Of a DNA stretch of 19,110 bases, positions 10,434-16,749 are shown one piece after another (the stretch's first letter is position 1; each line of letters starts with the position of its first letter). The translations under genes and the position numbers were made by a program. Under the pieces are notes generated by a model. It ran no database searches. It worked only from the letters and a program-made list of their open reading frames with translations, and was not told the origin of the DNA. This DNA is from a virus. The DNA is taken from the UHGV virus genome UHGV-0048443. One strand, written 5' to 3'.

Positions 10434-11249
10434 ATGACTACTTTTACCGACAAAGAACTGATTAAAGAAATCAAAGAGCGCATAGGCAGCCTGGACGTTC
10501 GAGACAATATTGAGCGCCGGTCGTATGAAATTGCACTGGCATCGCTGGAACGCGAACAGATTCGCCACGAGCATGCCAAATGGTCTGACTCCACATTTGG
10601 CTGCGTTGGCCCCATTGGTCCACTGAAACACCTCTCAAAAGAGGCACTGGAAGCCGCAGCCGAACCAGACGATCTTAGCGAGTGGGCTGATATGCAGTTT
10701 CTGTTGTGGGATGCACAGCGCCGTGCTGGCATCAGCGATGCTGAAATTAACGTTGCTATGGAAGATAAATTGAAGATCAACATGGAGCGCCAGTGGCCTG
10801 AGCCAAAAGATGGTGAGCCTCGCTTGCACATTAAAGAACCCGGCAACTCTCCGGTAATTCCGGATGGTTTATCCACGGTATGCGCTGAGGCTTATCAGGT
10901 TGTAGGAGTTATGGCAGATGCGCTTGGTGTATTCGGTGATGCAGCAGTACAGAAAGTTCTGGATAACCTGTCACAGCAAAAACTTGTTCACAGAGATGTG
11001 CTGCCGTTCTCGCTTCCGGTAACTCCGGATGGTTGGATAAGCTGTAGTGATCGAATGCCTGAAAAGGGCCAGAACGTGCTTATTTCGGTGAATTTCGATA
11101 GCTCTCTGGTTGAACCGCTAATATGCTCCGCACGCTATACCGGAAGCACCTTTCGGCGCGGAGATGCAACGATTAAGCCGGGTAATGGTATTGAGCAAGC
11201 AACTCACTGGATGCCGCTACCGGAACCGCCGCAGGAGGTGAATCAATGA
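10434..11249 (+). CDS. Two-domain prophage protein (271 aa); C-terminal region resembles the DUF551 family, N-terminal region possibly DUF550-like
   Basis: C-terminal GWISCSDRMPEKGQNVLI...WMPLPEPP pattern recalled from DUF551 proteins; domain names are from memory and unverified. Confidence 0.7.
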   Translation: MTTFTDKELIKEIKERIGSLDVRDNIERRSYEIALASLEREQIRHEHAKWSDSTFGCVGPIGPLKHLSKEALEAAAEPDDLSEWADMQFLLWDAQRRAGISDAEINVAMEDKLKINMERQWPEPKDGEPRLHIKEPGNSPVIPDGLSTVCAEAYQVVGVMADALGVFGDAAVQKVLDNLSQQKLVHRDVLPFSLPVTPDGWISCSDRMPEKGQNVLISVNFDSSLVEPLICSARYTGSTFRRGDATIKPGNGIEQATHWMPLPEPPQEVNQ

Positions 11250-11329
11250 GCTGGCCTGAAGCGTTCACAACGGTAGGAATTGCAATGGCGGTGGCGCTGG
11301 TGGTGTATTCTATTTGCCGCTGGGGGTAA
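11246..11329 (+). CDS. Candidate small hydrophobic peptide (27 aa; MSWPEAFTTVGIAMAVALVVYSICRWG)
   Basis: Hand-translated; AGGAGG SD 8 nt upstream; ATG overlaps the upstream stop (ATGA); one predicted transmembrane helix. Below the ORF-track cutoff. Confidence 0.35.
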   Translation: MSWPEAFTTVGIAMAVALVVYSICRWG

Positions 11330-11489
11330 GGTATTGAAAAACGCCCACACACATAAGTTGGGCACCTGAGTTGCGGGGATAGGGAGTTAGTTAAATAGTT
11401 ATACAACAATACCTGATTTTGTATTGAAGCAAGGAAGAGGTTGCCACATATTGAATCATGCACGTGTACGTCAAATGCGGGAGGTCATC

Positions 11490-11579
11490 GTGCTGGTTCT
11501 GAAATGTGCGCTGGCTATTGCGGCTGTAATGGCAATTTATTGTCTTGTTATTGTTCTTATGGATCACCTTTCTGATTGA
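11490..11579 (+). CDS. Candidate small hydrophobic peptide (29 aa from GTG; 34 aa from in-frame ATG at 11475): LVLKCALAIAAVMAIYCLVIVLMDHLSD
   Basis: Hand-translated; GGGAGG SD 5 nt before GTG 11490; single hydrophobic helix; candidate promoter TTGAAG-17-CATATT at 11424-11452. Confidence 0.3.
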   Translation: MLVLKCALAIAAVMAIYCLVIVLMDHLSD

Positions 11580-11733
11580 TTTTATATTGGCGAGGTGACG
11601 AGAGTTAAGTAGAATTGCTGCGGGTGCTTGAGGCTATCTGCCTCGGGCATGAACAGCAACGGCAGATAGATAAAAGCCCCAGTTAACATTACGCGTCCTG
11701 CAAGACGCTTAACATTAATCTGAGGCCCAATCT

Positions 11734-11931
11734 ATGCTTCACAAACGTAGGTTAGCCTCTTACGAGCCGAAAGGCAAGGAGAAGCAGGCTATGAAGCAGC
11801 AAAAGGCGATGTTAATCGCCCTGATCGTCATCTGTTTAACCGTCATAGTGACGGCACTGGTAACGAGGAAAGACCTCTGCGAGGTACGAATCCGAACCGG
11901 CCAGACGGAGGTCGCTGTCTTCACAGCTTAA
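11734..11931 (+). CDS. Mok-like reading frame: in-frame N-terminal extension of hok (65 aa)
   Basis: ORF MLHKRRLASYEPKGKEKQA-MKQQK...; layout parallels chromosomal mok/hok pairs as I recall them. Confidence 0.45.
   Translation: MLHKRRLASYEPKGKEKQAMKQQKAMLIALIVICLTVIVTALVTRKDLCEVRIRTGQTEVAVFTA
11791..11931 (+). CDS. hok: Hok-family type I toxin (46 aa), HokD/RelF-like
   Basis: MKQQKAMLIALIVICLTVIVTALVTRKDLCEVRIRTGQTEVAVFTA matches HokD over its length from memory; AAGGAG SD 9 nt upstream of ATG 11791. Confidence 0.8.
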   Translation: MKQQKAMLIALIVICLTVIVTALVTRKDLCEVRIRTGQTEVAVFTA

Positions 11932-12014: not shown

Positions 12015-12040
12015 AACCCGCTTCGGCGGGTTTTTTGTTG
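12015..12040 (+). terminator. Rho-independent terminator after hok (aacccgc-ttcg-gcgggtt + TTTTTT)
   Basis: GC stem with tetraloop followed by a T-run, 85 nt after the hok stop. Confidence 0.6.
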
Positions 12041-12182: not shown

Positions 12183-12434
12183 GTGGATATAACCTTTTGT
12201 ACTTATAAACCTGGAGGCATCGTGGAAAAAATAAAGAAACTATTTAGTAGCAAATACGCAGTCATACGTCGTGATGACCTGTCAGTTATAGTCGAAATGG
12301 ATTACTTCCCTGAAACCCCAAAATCAATGATGTATCGTAATGGTCGAAAGGCAATTTTTTTACCGATGAGGGTAAGTGACATTATGGGAAATGATAAACT
12401 GCTGGATGAATTGCGAGTCAGAGCATCCTGTTAG
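12183..12434 (+). CDS. rem: Rem-like small prophage protein (83 aa from GTG 12183; 70 aa from GTG 12222)
   Basis: Position immediately after hok and the 83-aa length match the hokD-rem arrangement of Qin; GTG 12222 has the better SD (GGAGG). Preceded by a long AT-rich region. Confidence 0.5.
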   Translation: MDITFCTYKPGGIVEKIKKLFSSKYAVIRRDDLSVIVEMDYFPETPKSMMYRNGRKAIFLPMRVSDIMGNDKLLDELRVRASC

Positions 12435-13946: not shown

Positions 13947-13972
13947 CTCAATCTGTTATCCGGGGCTATATT
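13943..13972 (+). promoter_or_regulatory. Candidate late promoter (PR'-like): TTGACT - 18 bp - TATATT
   Basis: Near-consensus -35 overlapping the Q stop codon and a -10-like hexamer; lambda PR' has the same -35 hexamer and position relative to Q. Confidence 0.5.
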
Positions 13973-14035
13973 CCTCACGCGCCAGCAAAATCTGGCGTCG
14001 GGATTGGCGTCCTGGATAGAGACCGCGACAGATAC

Positions 14036-14059
14036 ACGCCGCGAGCGTGTTTTTTATTG
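14036..14059 (+). terminator. Candidate tR'-like terminator (cacgc-cgcga-gcgtg + TTTTTTATT)
   Basis: Short GC stem followed by a T-run, about 65 nt downstream of the predicted start site. Confidence 0.4.
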
Positions 14060-14216
14060 TCGTATGCGCGCGCACATCTGAATTATGGTGGGCTGTGTGG
14101 GGGCGGAGAGATCCGCGCCGGTCGGTTTCCCGGTTACGCCAACCCTGCACAGTTCACCACCAGACGATTGGCGTCGTCGGTGGTGAGTTATTAAGAAACC
14201 ACCAGAGGGCGTCATT

Positions 14217-15325: not shown

Positions 15326-15693
15326 ATGCCTCATAACCCAAATACCTGGCCGGACTGGCTGGAGTTGTTTCAGAGCTGGTGGCGTGGAGACACTCCGCTG
15401 GGCGCAGTGATTATGTCGATCGTTATGGCTGGTTTGCGCATCGCCTATTTTGGCGGTGGTGGGGGCTGGAAACGAAAAACGCTTGAGATTCTGCTTTGTG
15501 GTGCTCTGACGCTGACCTTTGCATCCGCGCTTGAGTATGTCGGATGGCCTAAATCACTTTCTGNNNNNNNNNNNNNNNNNNNNNNNNNNTTTCTGTTGCC
15601 ATTGGTGGTGGGGTGGGGCTGATTGGTGTTGATGCTATTCGTGGTGCGGCAATGAGGGTCATCGGTAACAAGTTCGGTGCCCATAAGGAGTAA
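15326..15693 (+). CDS. Class I holin, lambda S-like (interrupted by N-run 15564-15589)
   Basis: LRIAYFGGGGGWKRKTLEILLCGAL parallels lambda S [22 protein letters not shown]; C-terminal part after the gap (SVAIGGGVGLIGVDAIRGAAMRVIGNKFGAHKE) parallels the lambda S C-terminus. In-frame alternative start at 15302. Directly upstream of the endolysin. Confidence 0.6.
15564..15589. other. Assembly gap (26 N) inside the holin gene, flanked by duplicated tttctg
   Basis: N-run. Merging the flanking 6-bp repeat restores a continuous in-frame holin. Confidence 0.8.
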
Positions 15694-15696
15694 TTA

Positions 15697-16210
15697 ATGC
15701 AGACACTTAATTCCCAGCGTAAAGCTTTCCTTGATATGGTGGCATGGTCAGAAGGAACAGATAACGGACGGCAGAAAACCAGAAATCACGGTTATGATGT
15801 TATTGTCGGTGGCGAACTGTTCACTGATTACTCCGATCACCCCCGCAAACTTGTCACGCTAAATCCGAAACTCAAATCAACAGCCGCCGGACGTTACCAG
15901 CNNNNNNNNNNAATCAACAGCCGCCGGACGTTACCAGCTTCTTTCTCGCTGGTGGGATTCCTACCGCAAGCAACTTGGCCTGAAAGATTTTTCTCCAGAA
16001 AGTCAGGATGCTGTAGCGCTGCAGCAGATTAAAGAGCGTGGCGCTTTACCGATGATTGACCGTGGCGATATTCGTCAGGCAATCGACCGTTGCAGCAATA
16101 TCTGGGCGTCGTTACCTGGTGCAGGTTACGGTCAGTATGAACATAGAATCGGTGACCTGATTTCCCGATTTAAAGAAGCTGGTGGGGTGGTAAATGAAGC
16201 TGAGATATAA
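15697..16210 (+). CDS. Endolysin, lambda R-like lytic transglycosylase (interrupted by N-run 15902-15911)
   Basis: QRKAFLDMVAWSEGTDNGRQKTRNHGYDVIVGGELFTDYSDHPRKLVTLNPKLKSTAAGRYQ matches lambda R closely from memory; after the gap, LLSRWWDSYRKQLGLKDFSPESQDAVALQQIKERGALPMIDRGDIRQAIDRCSNIWASLPGAGYGQ continues the match. Confidence 0.85.
15902..15911. other. Assembly gap (10 N) inside the endolysin gene, flanked by an exact 27-bp duplication (15875-15901 = 15912-15938)
   Basis: aatcaacagccgccggacgttaccagc occurs on both sides of the N-run; removing the gap plus one copy restores the lambda R-like frame. Confidence 0.85.
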
Positions 16211-16586
16211 GCTGGTTATTGTTGCCTTCTTTGTTACCGTCATCGGTTCTTTTATCTGGTCTGCCGGGCATTACTACAGCAAATATCAACACGAAAAGGA
16301 GCGCGCTGATGAGGTTGTACGAAATGCTGAATCAGCAACAGCCATTACCCGTAACGTCCTGCAATCACTGCAAATCATCAACACAGTTATAGAGGCTAAC
16401 CAGCATGCAAAACAGCAGATCGCACTGGAGTCACAGAGAACCCAGGAAGATATCAAAGTGGCTGTTGCGGATGATGATTGCGCTGTTCGTATCGTTCCTT
16501 CTGGCGCAGTTAAGCGGTTGCACGAGTACGCGAACGGTATACGTGTCGGTGCCGGTCGTTCCGTTACCAGCCAGTCTGACGGATGA
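16194..16586 (+). CDS. i-spanin (Rz-like), 130 aa
   Basis: N-terminal transmembrane segment LVIVAFFVTVIGSFIW followed by a charged helical region; immediately after the endolysin; overlaps a +1-frame lipoprotein ORF. Confidence 0.65.
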   Translation: MKLRYKLVIVAFFVTVIGSFIWSAGHYYSKYQHEKERADEVVRNAESATAITRNVLQSLQIINTVIEANQHAKQQIALESQRTQEDIKVAVADDDCAVRIVPSGAVKRLHEYANGIRVGAGRSVTSQSDG

Positions 16587-16749
16587 AACCCCCCAGCCAG
16601 ATTTACCCGACCCGTTTACGTGGGGAGCCAGCCTTAACCTGAATGTTGCGTTGTTGTCAGCGTTAGCACAGTGCAACAGGGATAAGGCTGATATCAGGAC
16701 TTTTGAGAAAAACAGGGCAGCACAAACTAATGGCACGATTAAACGTTGA
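16471..16749 (+). CDS. o-spanin (Rz1-like lipoprotein), about 92 aa
   Basis: Signal peptide with lipobox LSGC (MMIALFVSFLLAQLSG-C) and a proline-rich mature region; begins inside Rz in a different frame and runs past the Rz stop. Confidence 0.55.
   Translation: MMIALFVSFLLAQLSGCTSTRTVYVSVPVVPLPASLTDETPQPDLPDPFTWGASLNLNVALLSALAQCNRDKADIRTFEKNRAAQTNGTIKR

What the first reader, a model, noticed from the sequence alone, without database searches (positions are those of the whole stretch)
11246..11579. Two unannotated small hydrophobic-peptide ORFs with strong Shine-Dalgarno sites just upstream of hok
A 27-codon ORF (11246-11329, AGGAGG SD, ATGA-coupled to the upstream gene) and a 29-34-codon ORF (11490-11579, GGGAGG SD) each encode a single predicted transmembrane helix. 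Both are below usual annotation cutoffs. Together with hok they make a cluster of three small membrane peptides where Qin carries relBE. They could be type I toxin-like peptides, holin-like modulators or superinfection-exclusion peptides.
Basis: partly seen in the sequence, partly recalled or inferred. Interest (0 to 1): 0.55.

Follow-up and report, generated by a model that had tools for sequence, protein, structure and literature searches.

The report
Two real prophage membrane mini-proteins beside hok
Two tiny unannotated genes next to the hok toxin gene in an E. coli prophage are genuine, conserved genes for single-pass membrane peptides carried by about a third of complete E. coli genomes, but they do not look like toxins and what they do is unknown.

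Summary
Both ORFs exist exactly as described and both are real genes. ORF1 (11246-11329, 27 aa) belongs to a widespread, uncurated family (MxWPEA + one transmembrane helix + basic tail). It always overlaps the stop codon of varied upstream genes (ATGA/TGATG), with a Shine-Dalgarno (SD) site inside that gene. 40 of 42 distinct homologues keep the 27-codon frame, and differences by codon position are 104/45/232. ORF2 is the 29-codon GTG form (11490-11579); the 34-codon ATG form is not conserved. It has a diverged sister (48% amino-acid identity), which is ECs_5710/XECs145 of E. coli O157:H7 Sakai. That sister is strongly ribosome-occupied in growing lysogens (Hücker 2017). ORF2-type genes are followed by hok in 93-100% of sampled loci. 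ORF1 is next to hok in only about 30%. Neither peptide matches any toxin, holin or defence profile. No antisense RNA is evident, ORF1 has no independent control, and the ORF2 sister is translated freely in healthy cells, so "type I toxin-like" is not supported. Most likely both are non-lethal accessory inner-membrane peptides. ORF1 would be made by translational coupling during early phage transcription, and ORF2 constitutively as the left-hand gene of an ORF2-hok/sok cassette. Function is untested.

The parts
10434..11249 (+). Upstream early gene (271 aa; dATP/dGTP pyrophosphohydrolase domain plus C-terminal DUF551). Its last codons carry the SD of ORF1 and its TGA overlaps the ORF1 ATG.
   Evidence: ORF list. 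Pfam PF04447 (3e-41) and PF04448 (7e-22). RefSeq splits it into two pieces.
11233..11238 (+). Shine-Dalgarno AGGAGG of ORF1, 7 nt before the ATG, inside the upstream gene.
   Evidence: Sequence. A GGAGG-type SD sits at the same place in nearly all family members, whatever the upstream gene.
11246..11329 (+). ORF1, 27 aa, member of the MxWPEA + TM + basic-tail peptide family. Predicted N-terminus outside and C-terminus inside the cell.
   Evidence: Homology blocks in other genomes start exactly at the ATG and end exactly at the stop. 40/42 distinct homologues keep the frame, and differences by codon position are 104/45/232. pN/pS (uncorrected non-synonymous/synonymous ratio) is 0.40 in frame against 0.66 and 2.0 off frame. 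Hydropathy.
11424..11452 (+). Putative promoter of ORF2: TTGAAG (11424-11429), 17-nt spacer, CATATT (11447-11452). Inferred, not shown.
   Evidence: The hexamers are conserved in three upstream sub-lineages while the spacer and flanks vary. It matches only 8/12 to consensus, so the scan did not call it. It is absent in the BL21/C41 locus L010.
11479..11484 (+). Shine-Dalgarno GGGAGG of ORF2, 5 nt before the GTG.
   Evidence: Sequence. AGGAG(G) plus GTG are conserved in all type-A loci, although the sequence further upstream is unrelated between sub-lineages.
11490..11579 (+). ORF2, 29 aa (GTG start), single-TM peptide with an acidic C-terminus. It is the left-hand gene of the ORF2-hok/sok cassette.
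   Evidence: Conserved core in 23 database proteins with unrelated N-terminal 'extensions'. Sister type B has 48% aa and 63% nt identity with differences 13/6/14 by codon position. The sister is ECs_5710/XECs145, which has RIBOseq support. 99/107 type-A and 108/108 type-B copies are followed by hok.
11587..11615 (+). hok promoter (TTGGCG, 17-nt spacer, TAGAAT), starting 7 nt after the ORF2 stop.
   Evidence: Promoter scan. Invariant in homologous loci.
11622..11796 (+). hok mRNA leader / sok region.
   Evidence: Rfam RF01794, 107.6 bits.
11734..11931 (+). mok (from 11734) and hok (11791-11931) reading frame. Hok here is 46 aa because of a TAC-to-TAA change relative to K-12 hokD.
   Evidence: Pfam HOK_GEF, 79 bits. 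RefSeq hokD. Comparison with K-12.
12015..12032 (+). Intrinsic terminator-like hairpin after hok. It is the only convincing terminator between ORF1 and the next gene.
   Evidence: Terminator scan.

Best explanation
Both ORFs are genuine protein-coding genes for single-pass inner-membrane peptides, carried as accessory cargo in the early-right (nin-like) region of a Rac-like lambdoid prophage.

ORF1 (27 aa) has no transcription or translation signals of its own apart from an SD buried in the last codons of the preceding gene and an ATGA stop/start overlap. It is therefore made by termination-reinitiation coupling whenever the early operon is translated, that is after induction or infection (inferred). 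Its charge distribution (Glu before the helix, Arg after it) predicts the N-terminus outside and the C-terminus inside (inferred).

ORF2 (29 aa, GTG start) is the left-hand gene of a mobile 'ORF2-hok/sok' cassette. It has its own SD and probably its own weak promoter, and by analogy with its Sakai sister it is transcribed and efficiently translated in uninduced lysogens.

Shown: coding conservation, coupling architecture, linkage to hok, and ribosome occupancy of the sister. Inferred: membrane insertion, topology, promoter, and that the peptides act as non-lethal modulators that bind a host or phage membrane protein rather than as toxins.
For: ORF1:
- Mosaic homology blocks start and end exactly at the ORF borders, behind different upstream genes.
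- The ORF1 region is present in 1741 of 5426 complete E. coli genomes, median 2 copies.
- It occurs in Stx phages, a lytic Vequintavirinae phage and E. coli plasmid records.
- In a set chosen without regard to reading frame, 40/42 distinct sequences keep 27 codons, both other frames always contain stops, and differences by codon position are 104/45/232. pN/pS is 0.40.
- ATGA or TGATG overlap plus GGAGG holds behind DUF551-type, 'ISVEDVLR'-type and other gene ends.

ORF2:
- The core, SD and GTG are conserved while the upstream sequence is unrelated.
- Within type A, roughly equal numbers of synonymous and non-synonymous changes (my count).
- The type-B sister shows many synonymous codon swaps.
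- XECs145 in LB: RNA RPKM 79, RIBOseq RPKM 346, RCV 4.35, coverage 0.99, predicted inner membrane with 1 TM (PMC5597208 S2/S8). It is annotated as ECs_5710.
- Linkage to hok is 99/107 and 108/108.

Both: only these two ORFs and hok fit the criteria in the window, against 0.05 expected.
Against: - No experiment bears on these exact ORFs. The ribosome data are for a 48%-identical sister in another strain, and the published ORF model (53 aa) uses a different start.
- ORF2 type A is so conserved at the DNA level that within-type dN/dS has little power. A-versus-B pN/pS is only 0.6, close to one off-frame value (0.65).
- The ORF2 promoter is weak by consensus and missing in one lineage (L010).
- 'Non-toxic' rests on native expression of the sister only.
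- A few ORF1 copies carry nonsense mutations at Trp codons (L335, L277, L312; one more). This could reflect ordinary prophage decay or counter-selection.
- Membrane insertion, topology and any binding partner are unverified.
Confidence: 0.6

Rival explanations
1. One or both peptides are type I toxin-like membrane poisons kept in check by RNA.
For: Both are small and hydrophobic and sit next to hok. A sigma-70-like site on the minus strand (11608 to 11579, 9/12) would drive transcription antisense to ORF2. A few ORF1 copies carry nonsense mutations at Trp codons.
Against: - No Pfam, NCBIfam, PHROG or PADLOC toxin profile matches.
- There is no Rfam RNA over either ORF and no minus-strand terminator.
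- The fold of 11325-11600 is not unusually stable (z = -1.0).
- ORF1 is coupled to an ordinary gene with no independent control.
- The ORF2 sister is translated at RCV 4.35 in exponentially growing cells.
Confidence: 0.12
2. ORF2 matters in cis, not as a peptide. Its transcription or translation, or its AT-rich 3' end, tunes the hok promoter that starts 7 nt after its stop codon (UP element, transcriptional interference or read-through into hok mRNA).
For: ORF2 is almost always adjacent to hok. There is no terminator between ORF2 and hok. The last ~20 nt of ORF2 stay attached to the hok promoter in loci where the rest of ORF2 has been replaced (L340, L294, L290, L011).
Against: The peptide core is conserved between types A and B despite 37% nucleotide divergence and many synonymous swaps. 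The spacing to the promoter differs (7 nt in type A against ~55 nt with a palindrome in type B). hok loci work without ORF2, as in 933W/Sp5 hokW-sokW (PMC8621323).
Confidence: 0.1
3. The peptides are prophage-encoded defence or superinfection-exclusion factors acting at the inner membrane, possibly together with hok/sok (which is reported to exclude T4).
For: ORF2-type genes are expressed in lysogens. Both are accessory genes in mosaic positions typical of such cargo. ORF2 clusters tightly with hok, a membrane-acting toxin locus.
Against: No defence-system profile matches. ORF1 appears to be expressed only with early lytic genes and also occurs in a lytic phage (Av-05), which fits poorly with lysogen protection.
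Confidence: 0.15
4. The ORFs are not genes. Their conservation reflects DNA-level constraints or recent common descent of prophage DNA.
For: ORF2 type A is highly conserved at the nucleotide level like the rest of the hok locus. Neither ORF is called by RefSeq.
Against: Third-position excess, frame retention in 40/42 distinct sequences, and stops in both other frames. ORF-exact mosaic boundaries. Relatives at 55-67% amino-acid identity with full-length alignments. RIBOseq for the ORF2 sister.
Confidence: 0.03

Closest known systems
ECs_5710 / XECs145 of E. coli O157:H7 Sakai prophage Sp6 (Hücker et al. 2017, PMC5597208)
   Same: Sister of ORF2. It occupies the same slot between an ORF1-family gene and the hok promoter, has the same core (ALA.IAVV..YCLV..LMD.L) and ends at the same point. 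It is predicted to be an inner-membrane protein with 1 TM and is translated in lysogens.
   Different: It is 34 aa with an acidic MSDDIS N-terminal extension and an ATG start, and is only 48% identical over the shared 29 residues. A palindrome-containing ~55-nt spacer separates it from the hok promoter. Its function is likewise unknown.
Hok/Gef type I toxins (PF01848), including hokW-sokW of Sp5/933W
   Same: Small single-TM prophage peptides in the same cluster. ORF2 is co-inherited with hok.
   Different: No sequence relationship. ORF1/ORF2 are 27-29 aa with no periplasmic domain, no mok-type leader ORF, no folded long mRNA and no Sok-like antisense RNA. ORF1 is translationally coupled and the ORF2 sister is freely translated.
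Small regulatory inner-membrane proteins of E. coli (e.g. KdpF, AcrZ, MgtS, CydX; named from my own knowledge)
   Same: Size class (under 50 aa), a single TM helix, non-toxic expression, and being overlooked by annotation. This is the working analogy for how they act.
   Different: No sequence similarity (the KdpF profile scores E = 0.23). Those proteins are chromosomal and have known partners, whereas these are phage cargo with no partner known.
Lambdoid exo-xis / nin-region accessory genes (DUF551 and Ea22-like neighbours)
   Same: Same genomic neighbourhoods. ORF1 follows DUF551, Ea22-like or EaA genes in Stx phages and other prophages.
   Different: Those are soluble proteins of about 100-300 aa. 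The 27-aa peptide behind them is not annotated or described in the records and papers examined.

Membership tests
Type I toxin (Hok/Gef, Ldr, TisB, Ibs, etc.) | Small hydrophobic membrane peptide | tested here: met
   27 and 29 aa; the best 19-residue hydropathy windows score 2.1 and 2.8.
Type I toxin (Hok/Gef, Ldr, TisB, Ibs, etc.) | Sequence match to a described toxin family | tested here: not met
   No Pfam, NCBIfam, PHROG or PADLOC toxin profile at E <= 1. hok in the same window scores 79 bits.
Type I toxin (Hok/Gef, Ldr, TisB, Ibs, etc.) | Antisense or divergent sRNA antitoxin with its own promoter and terminator | tested here: not met
   No Rfam hit over 11246-11579. The minus strand has one 9/12 promoter-like site (11608 to 11579) but no terminator. 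The fold is not unusually stable. RNA mapping would be needed for certainty.
Type I toxin (Hok/Gef, Ldr, TisB, Ibs, etc.) | Toxin translation kept off in growing cells | tested here: not met
   ORF2 sister XECs145: RIBOseq RPKM 346 and RCV 4.35 in LB. ORF1 is coupled to an ordinary gene. This is indirect for the window's own ORFs.
Type I toxin (Hok/Gef, Ldr, TisB, Ibs, etc.) | Growth arrest or membrane damage on expression | not testable with these tools
   Requires inducible expression.
Phage holin / antiholin | Located in the lysis cassette next to the endolysin and expressed late | tested here: not met
   Holin, lysozyme and Rz1-like lysis genes lie at 15326-16680, downstream of the DUF1133 gene. 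ORF1 and ORF2 lie in the early-right region upstream of it.
Phage holin / antiholin | Match to a holin family profile and holin-like size | tested here: not met
   No holin profile match. The window's own annotated lambda-family holin gene is 336 nt, about 111 aa, against 27-29 aa here.
ECs_5710/XECs145 small membrane protein family (for ORF2) | Homologous core and the same stop position | tested here: met
   14/29 identical residues, ungapped, with the shared ...LMD.L.. C-terminus.
ECs_5710/XECs145 small membrane protein family (for ORF2) | Conserved position immediately upstream of a hok/sok locus | tested here: met
   99/107 (type A) and 108/108 (type B) are followed by hok within 500 nt. 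Sakai layout.
MxWPEA small membrane peptide family (for ORF1; defined here) | N-terminal M-x-W-P-E-A-[FIL], about 18-20 hydrophobic residues, basic residue near the C-terminus, 23-37 aa | tested here: met
   The window peptide fits. There are 41 distinct 27-aa DNA variants plus divergent members in contigs of GC 0.30-0.61. A scan with the CCG proline codon gave 6/83 such peptides against 0/77 for a scrambled control.
MxWPEA small membrane peptide family (for ORF1; defined here) | Start codon overlapping the stop of an upstream ORF, with an SD inside that ORF | tested here: met
   ATGA at 11246-11249 and AGGAGG at 11233-11238. Among the 103 family members, 78 have an open upstream frame of at least 60 codons ending at the overlapping TGA; most of the rest have the 1-nt TGATG overlap.

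The most novel reading that the evidence does not exclude
ORF2-type peptides are a functional third component of a large subset of prophage hok/sok loci. In this reading a constitutively made membrane peptide modulates Hok insertion or pore formation, or sets the threshold for killing, which would make these loci a new three-part variant of the classic type I toxin-antitoxin system. Separately, the MxWPEA peptides may be a phylogenetically broad class of phage membrane effectors with a common target recognised through their invariant N-terminal motif.
Probability: 0.15. Interest if true: 0.7.

Novelty: new member of a known kind. Interest (0 to 1): 0.45.

Why it matters
- These two genes are among the commonest unannotated coding sequences in E. 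coli. Full-length ORF1 regions occur in 1129 and full-length ORF2 type-A regions in 1793 of 5426 complete genomes (matches of any length: 1741 and 2642). Both fall below annotation length cut-offs.
- The hok/sok loci of prophages, including those of Shiga-toxin phages, have been studied without noticing that a conserved membrane-peptide gene lies directly beside their promoter. If that peptide affects Hok, models of prophage maintenance, phage release and phage exclusion by hok/sok would need a third player.
- ORF1 defines a simple family that can be found by motif (MxWPEA + TM, ATGA-coupled). It could be added to annotation pipelines and tested for a common membrane target.

Tried and rejected
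I worked around this with a tandem ORF1 query, which found only mis-started 29-87 aa 'hypothetical proteins'.
- The single genome-contig scan was wasted on a 15-base pattern that returned only chance hits across unrelated phyla, so I have no systematic cross-genus sampling.
- Searching papers for the peptide strings found nothing relevant. The hokW-sokW paper does not mention an upstream ORF.
- Weaver et al. 2019, the K-12 small-protein study, has no hit. K-12 prophages Qin, Rac and CPS-53 lack both genes, so K-12 small-protein data cannot be applied.
- Hücker et al. used a 30-aa cut-off, so ORF1 was outside their screen.
- PDB sequence searches gave nothing.
- I did not run structure prediction. 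ORF1 is below the size limit, and a single predicted helix would not discriminate between the hypotheses.
- I considered and rejected programmed frameshifting that would fuse the DUF551 protein to ORF1: there is no slippery sequence at ...GTG AAT CAA TGA, and an ordinary SD plus ATG is present.
- A relationship between ORF2 and the Hok TM segment was rejected. My hand alignment gives about 20% identity, typical of unrelated TM helices, and the Pfam scan found no HOK_GEF or other match for ORF2.
- My first Pfam run on hok used a wrong start coordinate (11793) and gave no hit. It was corrected.
Full report
**Context.** The window is 100% identical to a Rac-like lambdoid prophage of E. coli strain P4. 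Gene order is recT/recE/kil (leftward), repressor/cro, ydaT, replication genes, DUF1627, DUF977, three hypothetical genes, and a 271-aa gene with dATP/dGTP pyrophosphohydrolase and DUF551 domains (10434-11249). Then come the two ORFs in question, hok/sok, DUF1367, DUF1364, DUF1133, IsrK/C4 RNAs, an ORF6N gene, the lysis genes and terminase. All genes from 5755 onward are on the + strand. The ORFs therefore lie in the early-right (nin-like) region, about 4 kb upstream of the lysis cassette.

**Observation.**
- ORF1: AGGAGG at 11233-11238, then 7 nt, then ATG at 11246, which overlaps the TGA of the upstream gene. It is 27 aa.
- ORF2: GGGAGG at 11479-11484, then 5 nt, then GTG at 11490. It is 29 aa and its stop is at 11577-11579, only 7 nt before the -35 hexamer of the hok promoter (TTGGCG 11587-11592, TAGAAT 11610-11615).
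- hok itself is confirmed by Pfam HOK_GEF at 79 bits and an Rfam sok-region hit at 11622-11796.
- A scan of both strands of the whole window for 20-50 aa ORFs with a strong SD and a TM-like segment returns only ORF1, ORF2 and hok, against 0.05 expected from shuffles.
- RefSeq annotates neither ORF, either here or in the other genomes inspected.

**ORF1 is a real gene.**
- In other E. coli genomes the homology block begins exactly at the ATG and ends exactly at the stop codon when the upstream gene differs (query positions 22-105). This is the pattern expected of a gene-sized mosaic module.
- It is found in 1741 of 5426 complete genomes, with a median of two copies per genome.
- tblastn finds full-length 27-aa relatives at 55-96% identity in Stx phages, other lambdoid phages, a lytic Vequintavirinae phage (Av-05) and further phages; E. 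coli plasmid records of 86-99 kb also match at the DNA level. In 933W the copy lies directly upstream of hokW/sokW.
- In each record inspected, the annotated upstream CDS ends 1-4 nt into the peptide's ATG and the peptide itself is not annotated.
- I took a set of viral-contig loci fetched with a DNA pattern and filtered by nucleotide identity only, without regard to reading frame. In that set 40 of 42 distinct sequences keep an intact 27-codon frame, both other frames always contain stops, and differences from the window copy fall 104/45/232 on codon positions 1/2/3. pN/pS (the uncorrected non-synonymous/synonymous ratio) is 0.40 in frame, against 0.66 and 2.0 off frame.
- The start overlaps the upstream stop (ATGA or TGATG) and a GGAGG sits 7-9 nt upstream. 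This holds behind at least two unrelated classes of upstream C-terminus...MPLPEPPQEV(N/R)Q and ...NGLISVEDVLR, and several others.
- The family is defined by M-x-W-P-E-A-[F/I/L], about 18-20 hydrophobic residues rich in small residues (G.A.A.A), and a basic residue near the C-terminus (...CRWG here).
- Divergent members with the same design and the same ATGA overlap occur in viral contigs of GC content 0.30-0.61. A second scan using the CCG proline codon gave 6 such peptides among 83 hits, against 0 of 77 for a scrambled (PWEA) control.
- No Pfam, NCBIfam, PHROG, PADLOC or PDB entry matches. In the 5.8-billion-protein collection the peptide appears only as mis-started 29-87 aa 'hypothetical proteins'.
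- K-12 prophages Qin, Rac and CPS-53 lack it. yfdT ends ...QQEVK*, but the peptide gene is gone. Published K-12 small-protein work therefore does not cover it.

**ORF2 is a real gene, and its 29-codon GTG form is the conserved one.**
- Database proteins that contain it have unrelated N-terminal 'extensions' of every length but share VLVLKCALAIAAVMAIYCL..VLM..LSD.
- In aligned loci, the GTG and an AGGAG(G) 5-7 nt upstream are invariant, while the sequence further upstream falls into at least four unrelated contexts.
- Within this type A, I counted on the alignment roughly equal numbers of synonymous and non-synonymous changes.
- There is a diverged sister, type B (MSDDISLAMEGALAVIAVVGVYCLVVFLMDRLGN). 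Over the last 29 codons it is 48% identical in protein and 63% in DNA, with differences 13/6/14 by codon position and many synonymous swaps (TAT/TAC, TGT/TGC, CTT/CTG/TTG/CTA).
- Type B is ECs_5710 of E. coli O157:H7 Sakai prophage Sp6. It is contained in XECs145, one of the 'novel translated intergenic ORFs' of Hücker et al. 2017 (PMC5597208). Their values: in LB, RNA RPKM 79.1, RIBOseq RPKM 346.1, ribosome coverage value (RCV) 4.35 and coverage 0.99; in BHI, 121.3/150.1/1.14/0.84. It is predicted to be an inner-membrane protein with one TM.
- Sakai Sp6 has the same layout as the window: ECs_1518 (DUF551), an ATGA overlap, an unannotated ORF1-family peptide, 35 nt, ECs_5710, a palindrome, the hok promoter and mok/hok.

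**Linkage to hok.**
- Loci fetched by an internal ORF2 pattern are followed by hok within 500 nt in 99 of 107 cases for type A and 108 of 108 for type B. An IS911 insertion separates ORF2 from hok in locus L008, and similar events may account for some of the eight type-A exceptions.
- Type B nearly always has ORF1 upstream (106/108). Type A rarely does (4/107), so the window is one of the few type-A loci with both genes.
- ORF1 is followed by a hok promoter in only 29 of 97 cases.
- hok also occurs without ORF2. In 933W, ORF1 is followed directly by the hok promoter. In other prophages a 59-aa two-TM ORF occupies the slot. In several loci only the last ~20 nt of ORF2 remain attached to the promoter.
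- ORF2 is therefore a co-inherited neighbour of this hok lineage and is not obligatory for it.

**Expression signals.**
- A candidate ORF2 promoter (TTGAAG 11424-11429, 17-nt spacer, CATATT 11447-11452) has conserved hexamers and a variable spacer in three sub-lineages. It matches consensus only 8/12 and is absent in the BL21/C41 locus.
- There is no convincing terminator between ORF1 and the hok terminator at 12015-12032. Transcripts that carry ORF1 or ORF2 can therefore run into the hok region.
- On the minus strand there is one promoter-like site (11608 to 11579) antisense to ORF2, but no terminator and no Rfam RNA. The local fold is not unusually stable (z = -1.0).

**Mechanism.**
- Shown: both ORFs are coding, ORF1 is set up for termination-reinitiation coupling, ORF2 is a separate cistron with its own SD, and the sister of ORF2 is efficiently translated in uninduced, growing lysogens.
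- Inferred: both peptides insert into the inner membrane as single helices. For ORF1, Glu5 before the helix and Arg25 after it predict the N-terminus outside and the C-terminus inside. For ORF2, Lys5 before the helix and an acidic tail after it predict the opposite orientation.
- Inferred: ORF1 is made only when the early operon is translated, and ORF2 is made constitutively.
- Because the ORF2 sister is freely translated in healthy cells and ORF1 has no repression device, I judge them to be non-lethal membrane modulators or accessory factors rather than toxins. I have no evidence for the target.

**Comparison with known systems.**
- They work most like the small single-TM regulatory proteins of E. 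coli (KdpF, AcrZ, MgtS and similar) or like prophage accessory ('moron') membrane proteins, but they belong to none of those families.
- They fail the tested criteria for type I toxins: no family match, no antisense RNA, and no repressed translation.
- They fail the tested criteria for holins: wrong position, wrong size and no profile match.
- ORF2 is a member of the ECs_5710/XECs145 family, which is known only as a translated hypothetical gene.
- ORF1 defines a family that, as far as the libraries and papers searched show, has not been described.

**Verdict.** The novelty is modest, namely new and very common members of a known kind. One open question is worth testing: whether the ORF2 peptide is a functional partner of hok/sok.

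Noticed in passing
window 11929-11931: The hok gene has TAA where K-12 hokD has TAC (Tyr47). Hok is therefore 46 aa and lacks the last five residues (YEPEE). It still covers 41/42 positions of Pfam HOK_GEF.
   Followed up: partly
window 13966-14164: Rfam matches to c4-a1b1 (13966-14018), isrK (13979-14055) and C4 antisense RNA (14081-14164), between the DUF1133 gene and an ORF6N-domain gene.
   Followed up: no
window 10434-11249: RefSeq (strain P4) splits this continuous 271-aa ORF into a 'partial pseudogene' (10434-10571) and a CDS (10614-11249). Its N-terminus resembles K-12 YfdT, and its domains are dATP/dGTP pyrophosphohydrolase plus DUF551.
   Followed up: partly
window 15564-15589 and 15902-15911: Two runs of N (26 and 10 bases) lie inside the holin/lysozyme region of the window.
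   Followed up: no
window 11414-11426 and 11577-11589: A 13-nt direct repeat, TGATTTTRTATTG, ends in the -35 hexamer of the putative ORF2 promoter and of the hok promoter respectively. It could be a duplicated promoter-upstream element or chance.
   Followed up: no
L346 (Sakai Sp6), shortly after locus position 2567; also L339, L229, L170: A perfect palindrome, CGATATGGGAATTCCCATATCG, lies between the type-B ORF2 stop and the hok promoter. It has no T-run on either strand and is retained even where ORF2B has been replaced. It is not present in the window.
   Followed up: no
L330, L336 and about 25 similar viral-contig loci: In other prophages the slot immediately upstream of the hok promoter holds a 59-aa ORF with two hydrophobic stretches (MKNALQFLFVAFWLF...MAVMCIEYWR). 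A small membrane-protein gene in front of hok therefore recurs with unrelated genes.
   Followed up: no
L166, L220, L228, L241, L185, L193, L539, L554, L592, L617: MxWPEA[FIL] + TM + basic-tail peptides of 25-37 aa, ATGA-overlapping an upstream ORF, occur in viral contigs of GC 0.30-0.61. The motif family therefore seems to reach well beyond E. coli phages.
   Followed up: partly
L335, L277, L312 (and one sequence): A few ORF1 copies carry nonsense mutations at one of the two Trp codons (TGG to TAG or TGA). This could be ordinary prophage decay or counter-selection; the numbers are too small to tell.
   Followed up: no
window 12222-12434: A 70-aa hypothetical gene after hok (WP_000411315.1) has no Pfam match. 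The 83-aa GTG-start version of the same ORF (12183-12434) matches phrog_1813 (unknown function, E = 1e-34).
   Followed up: no
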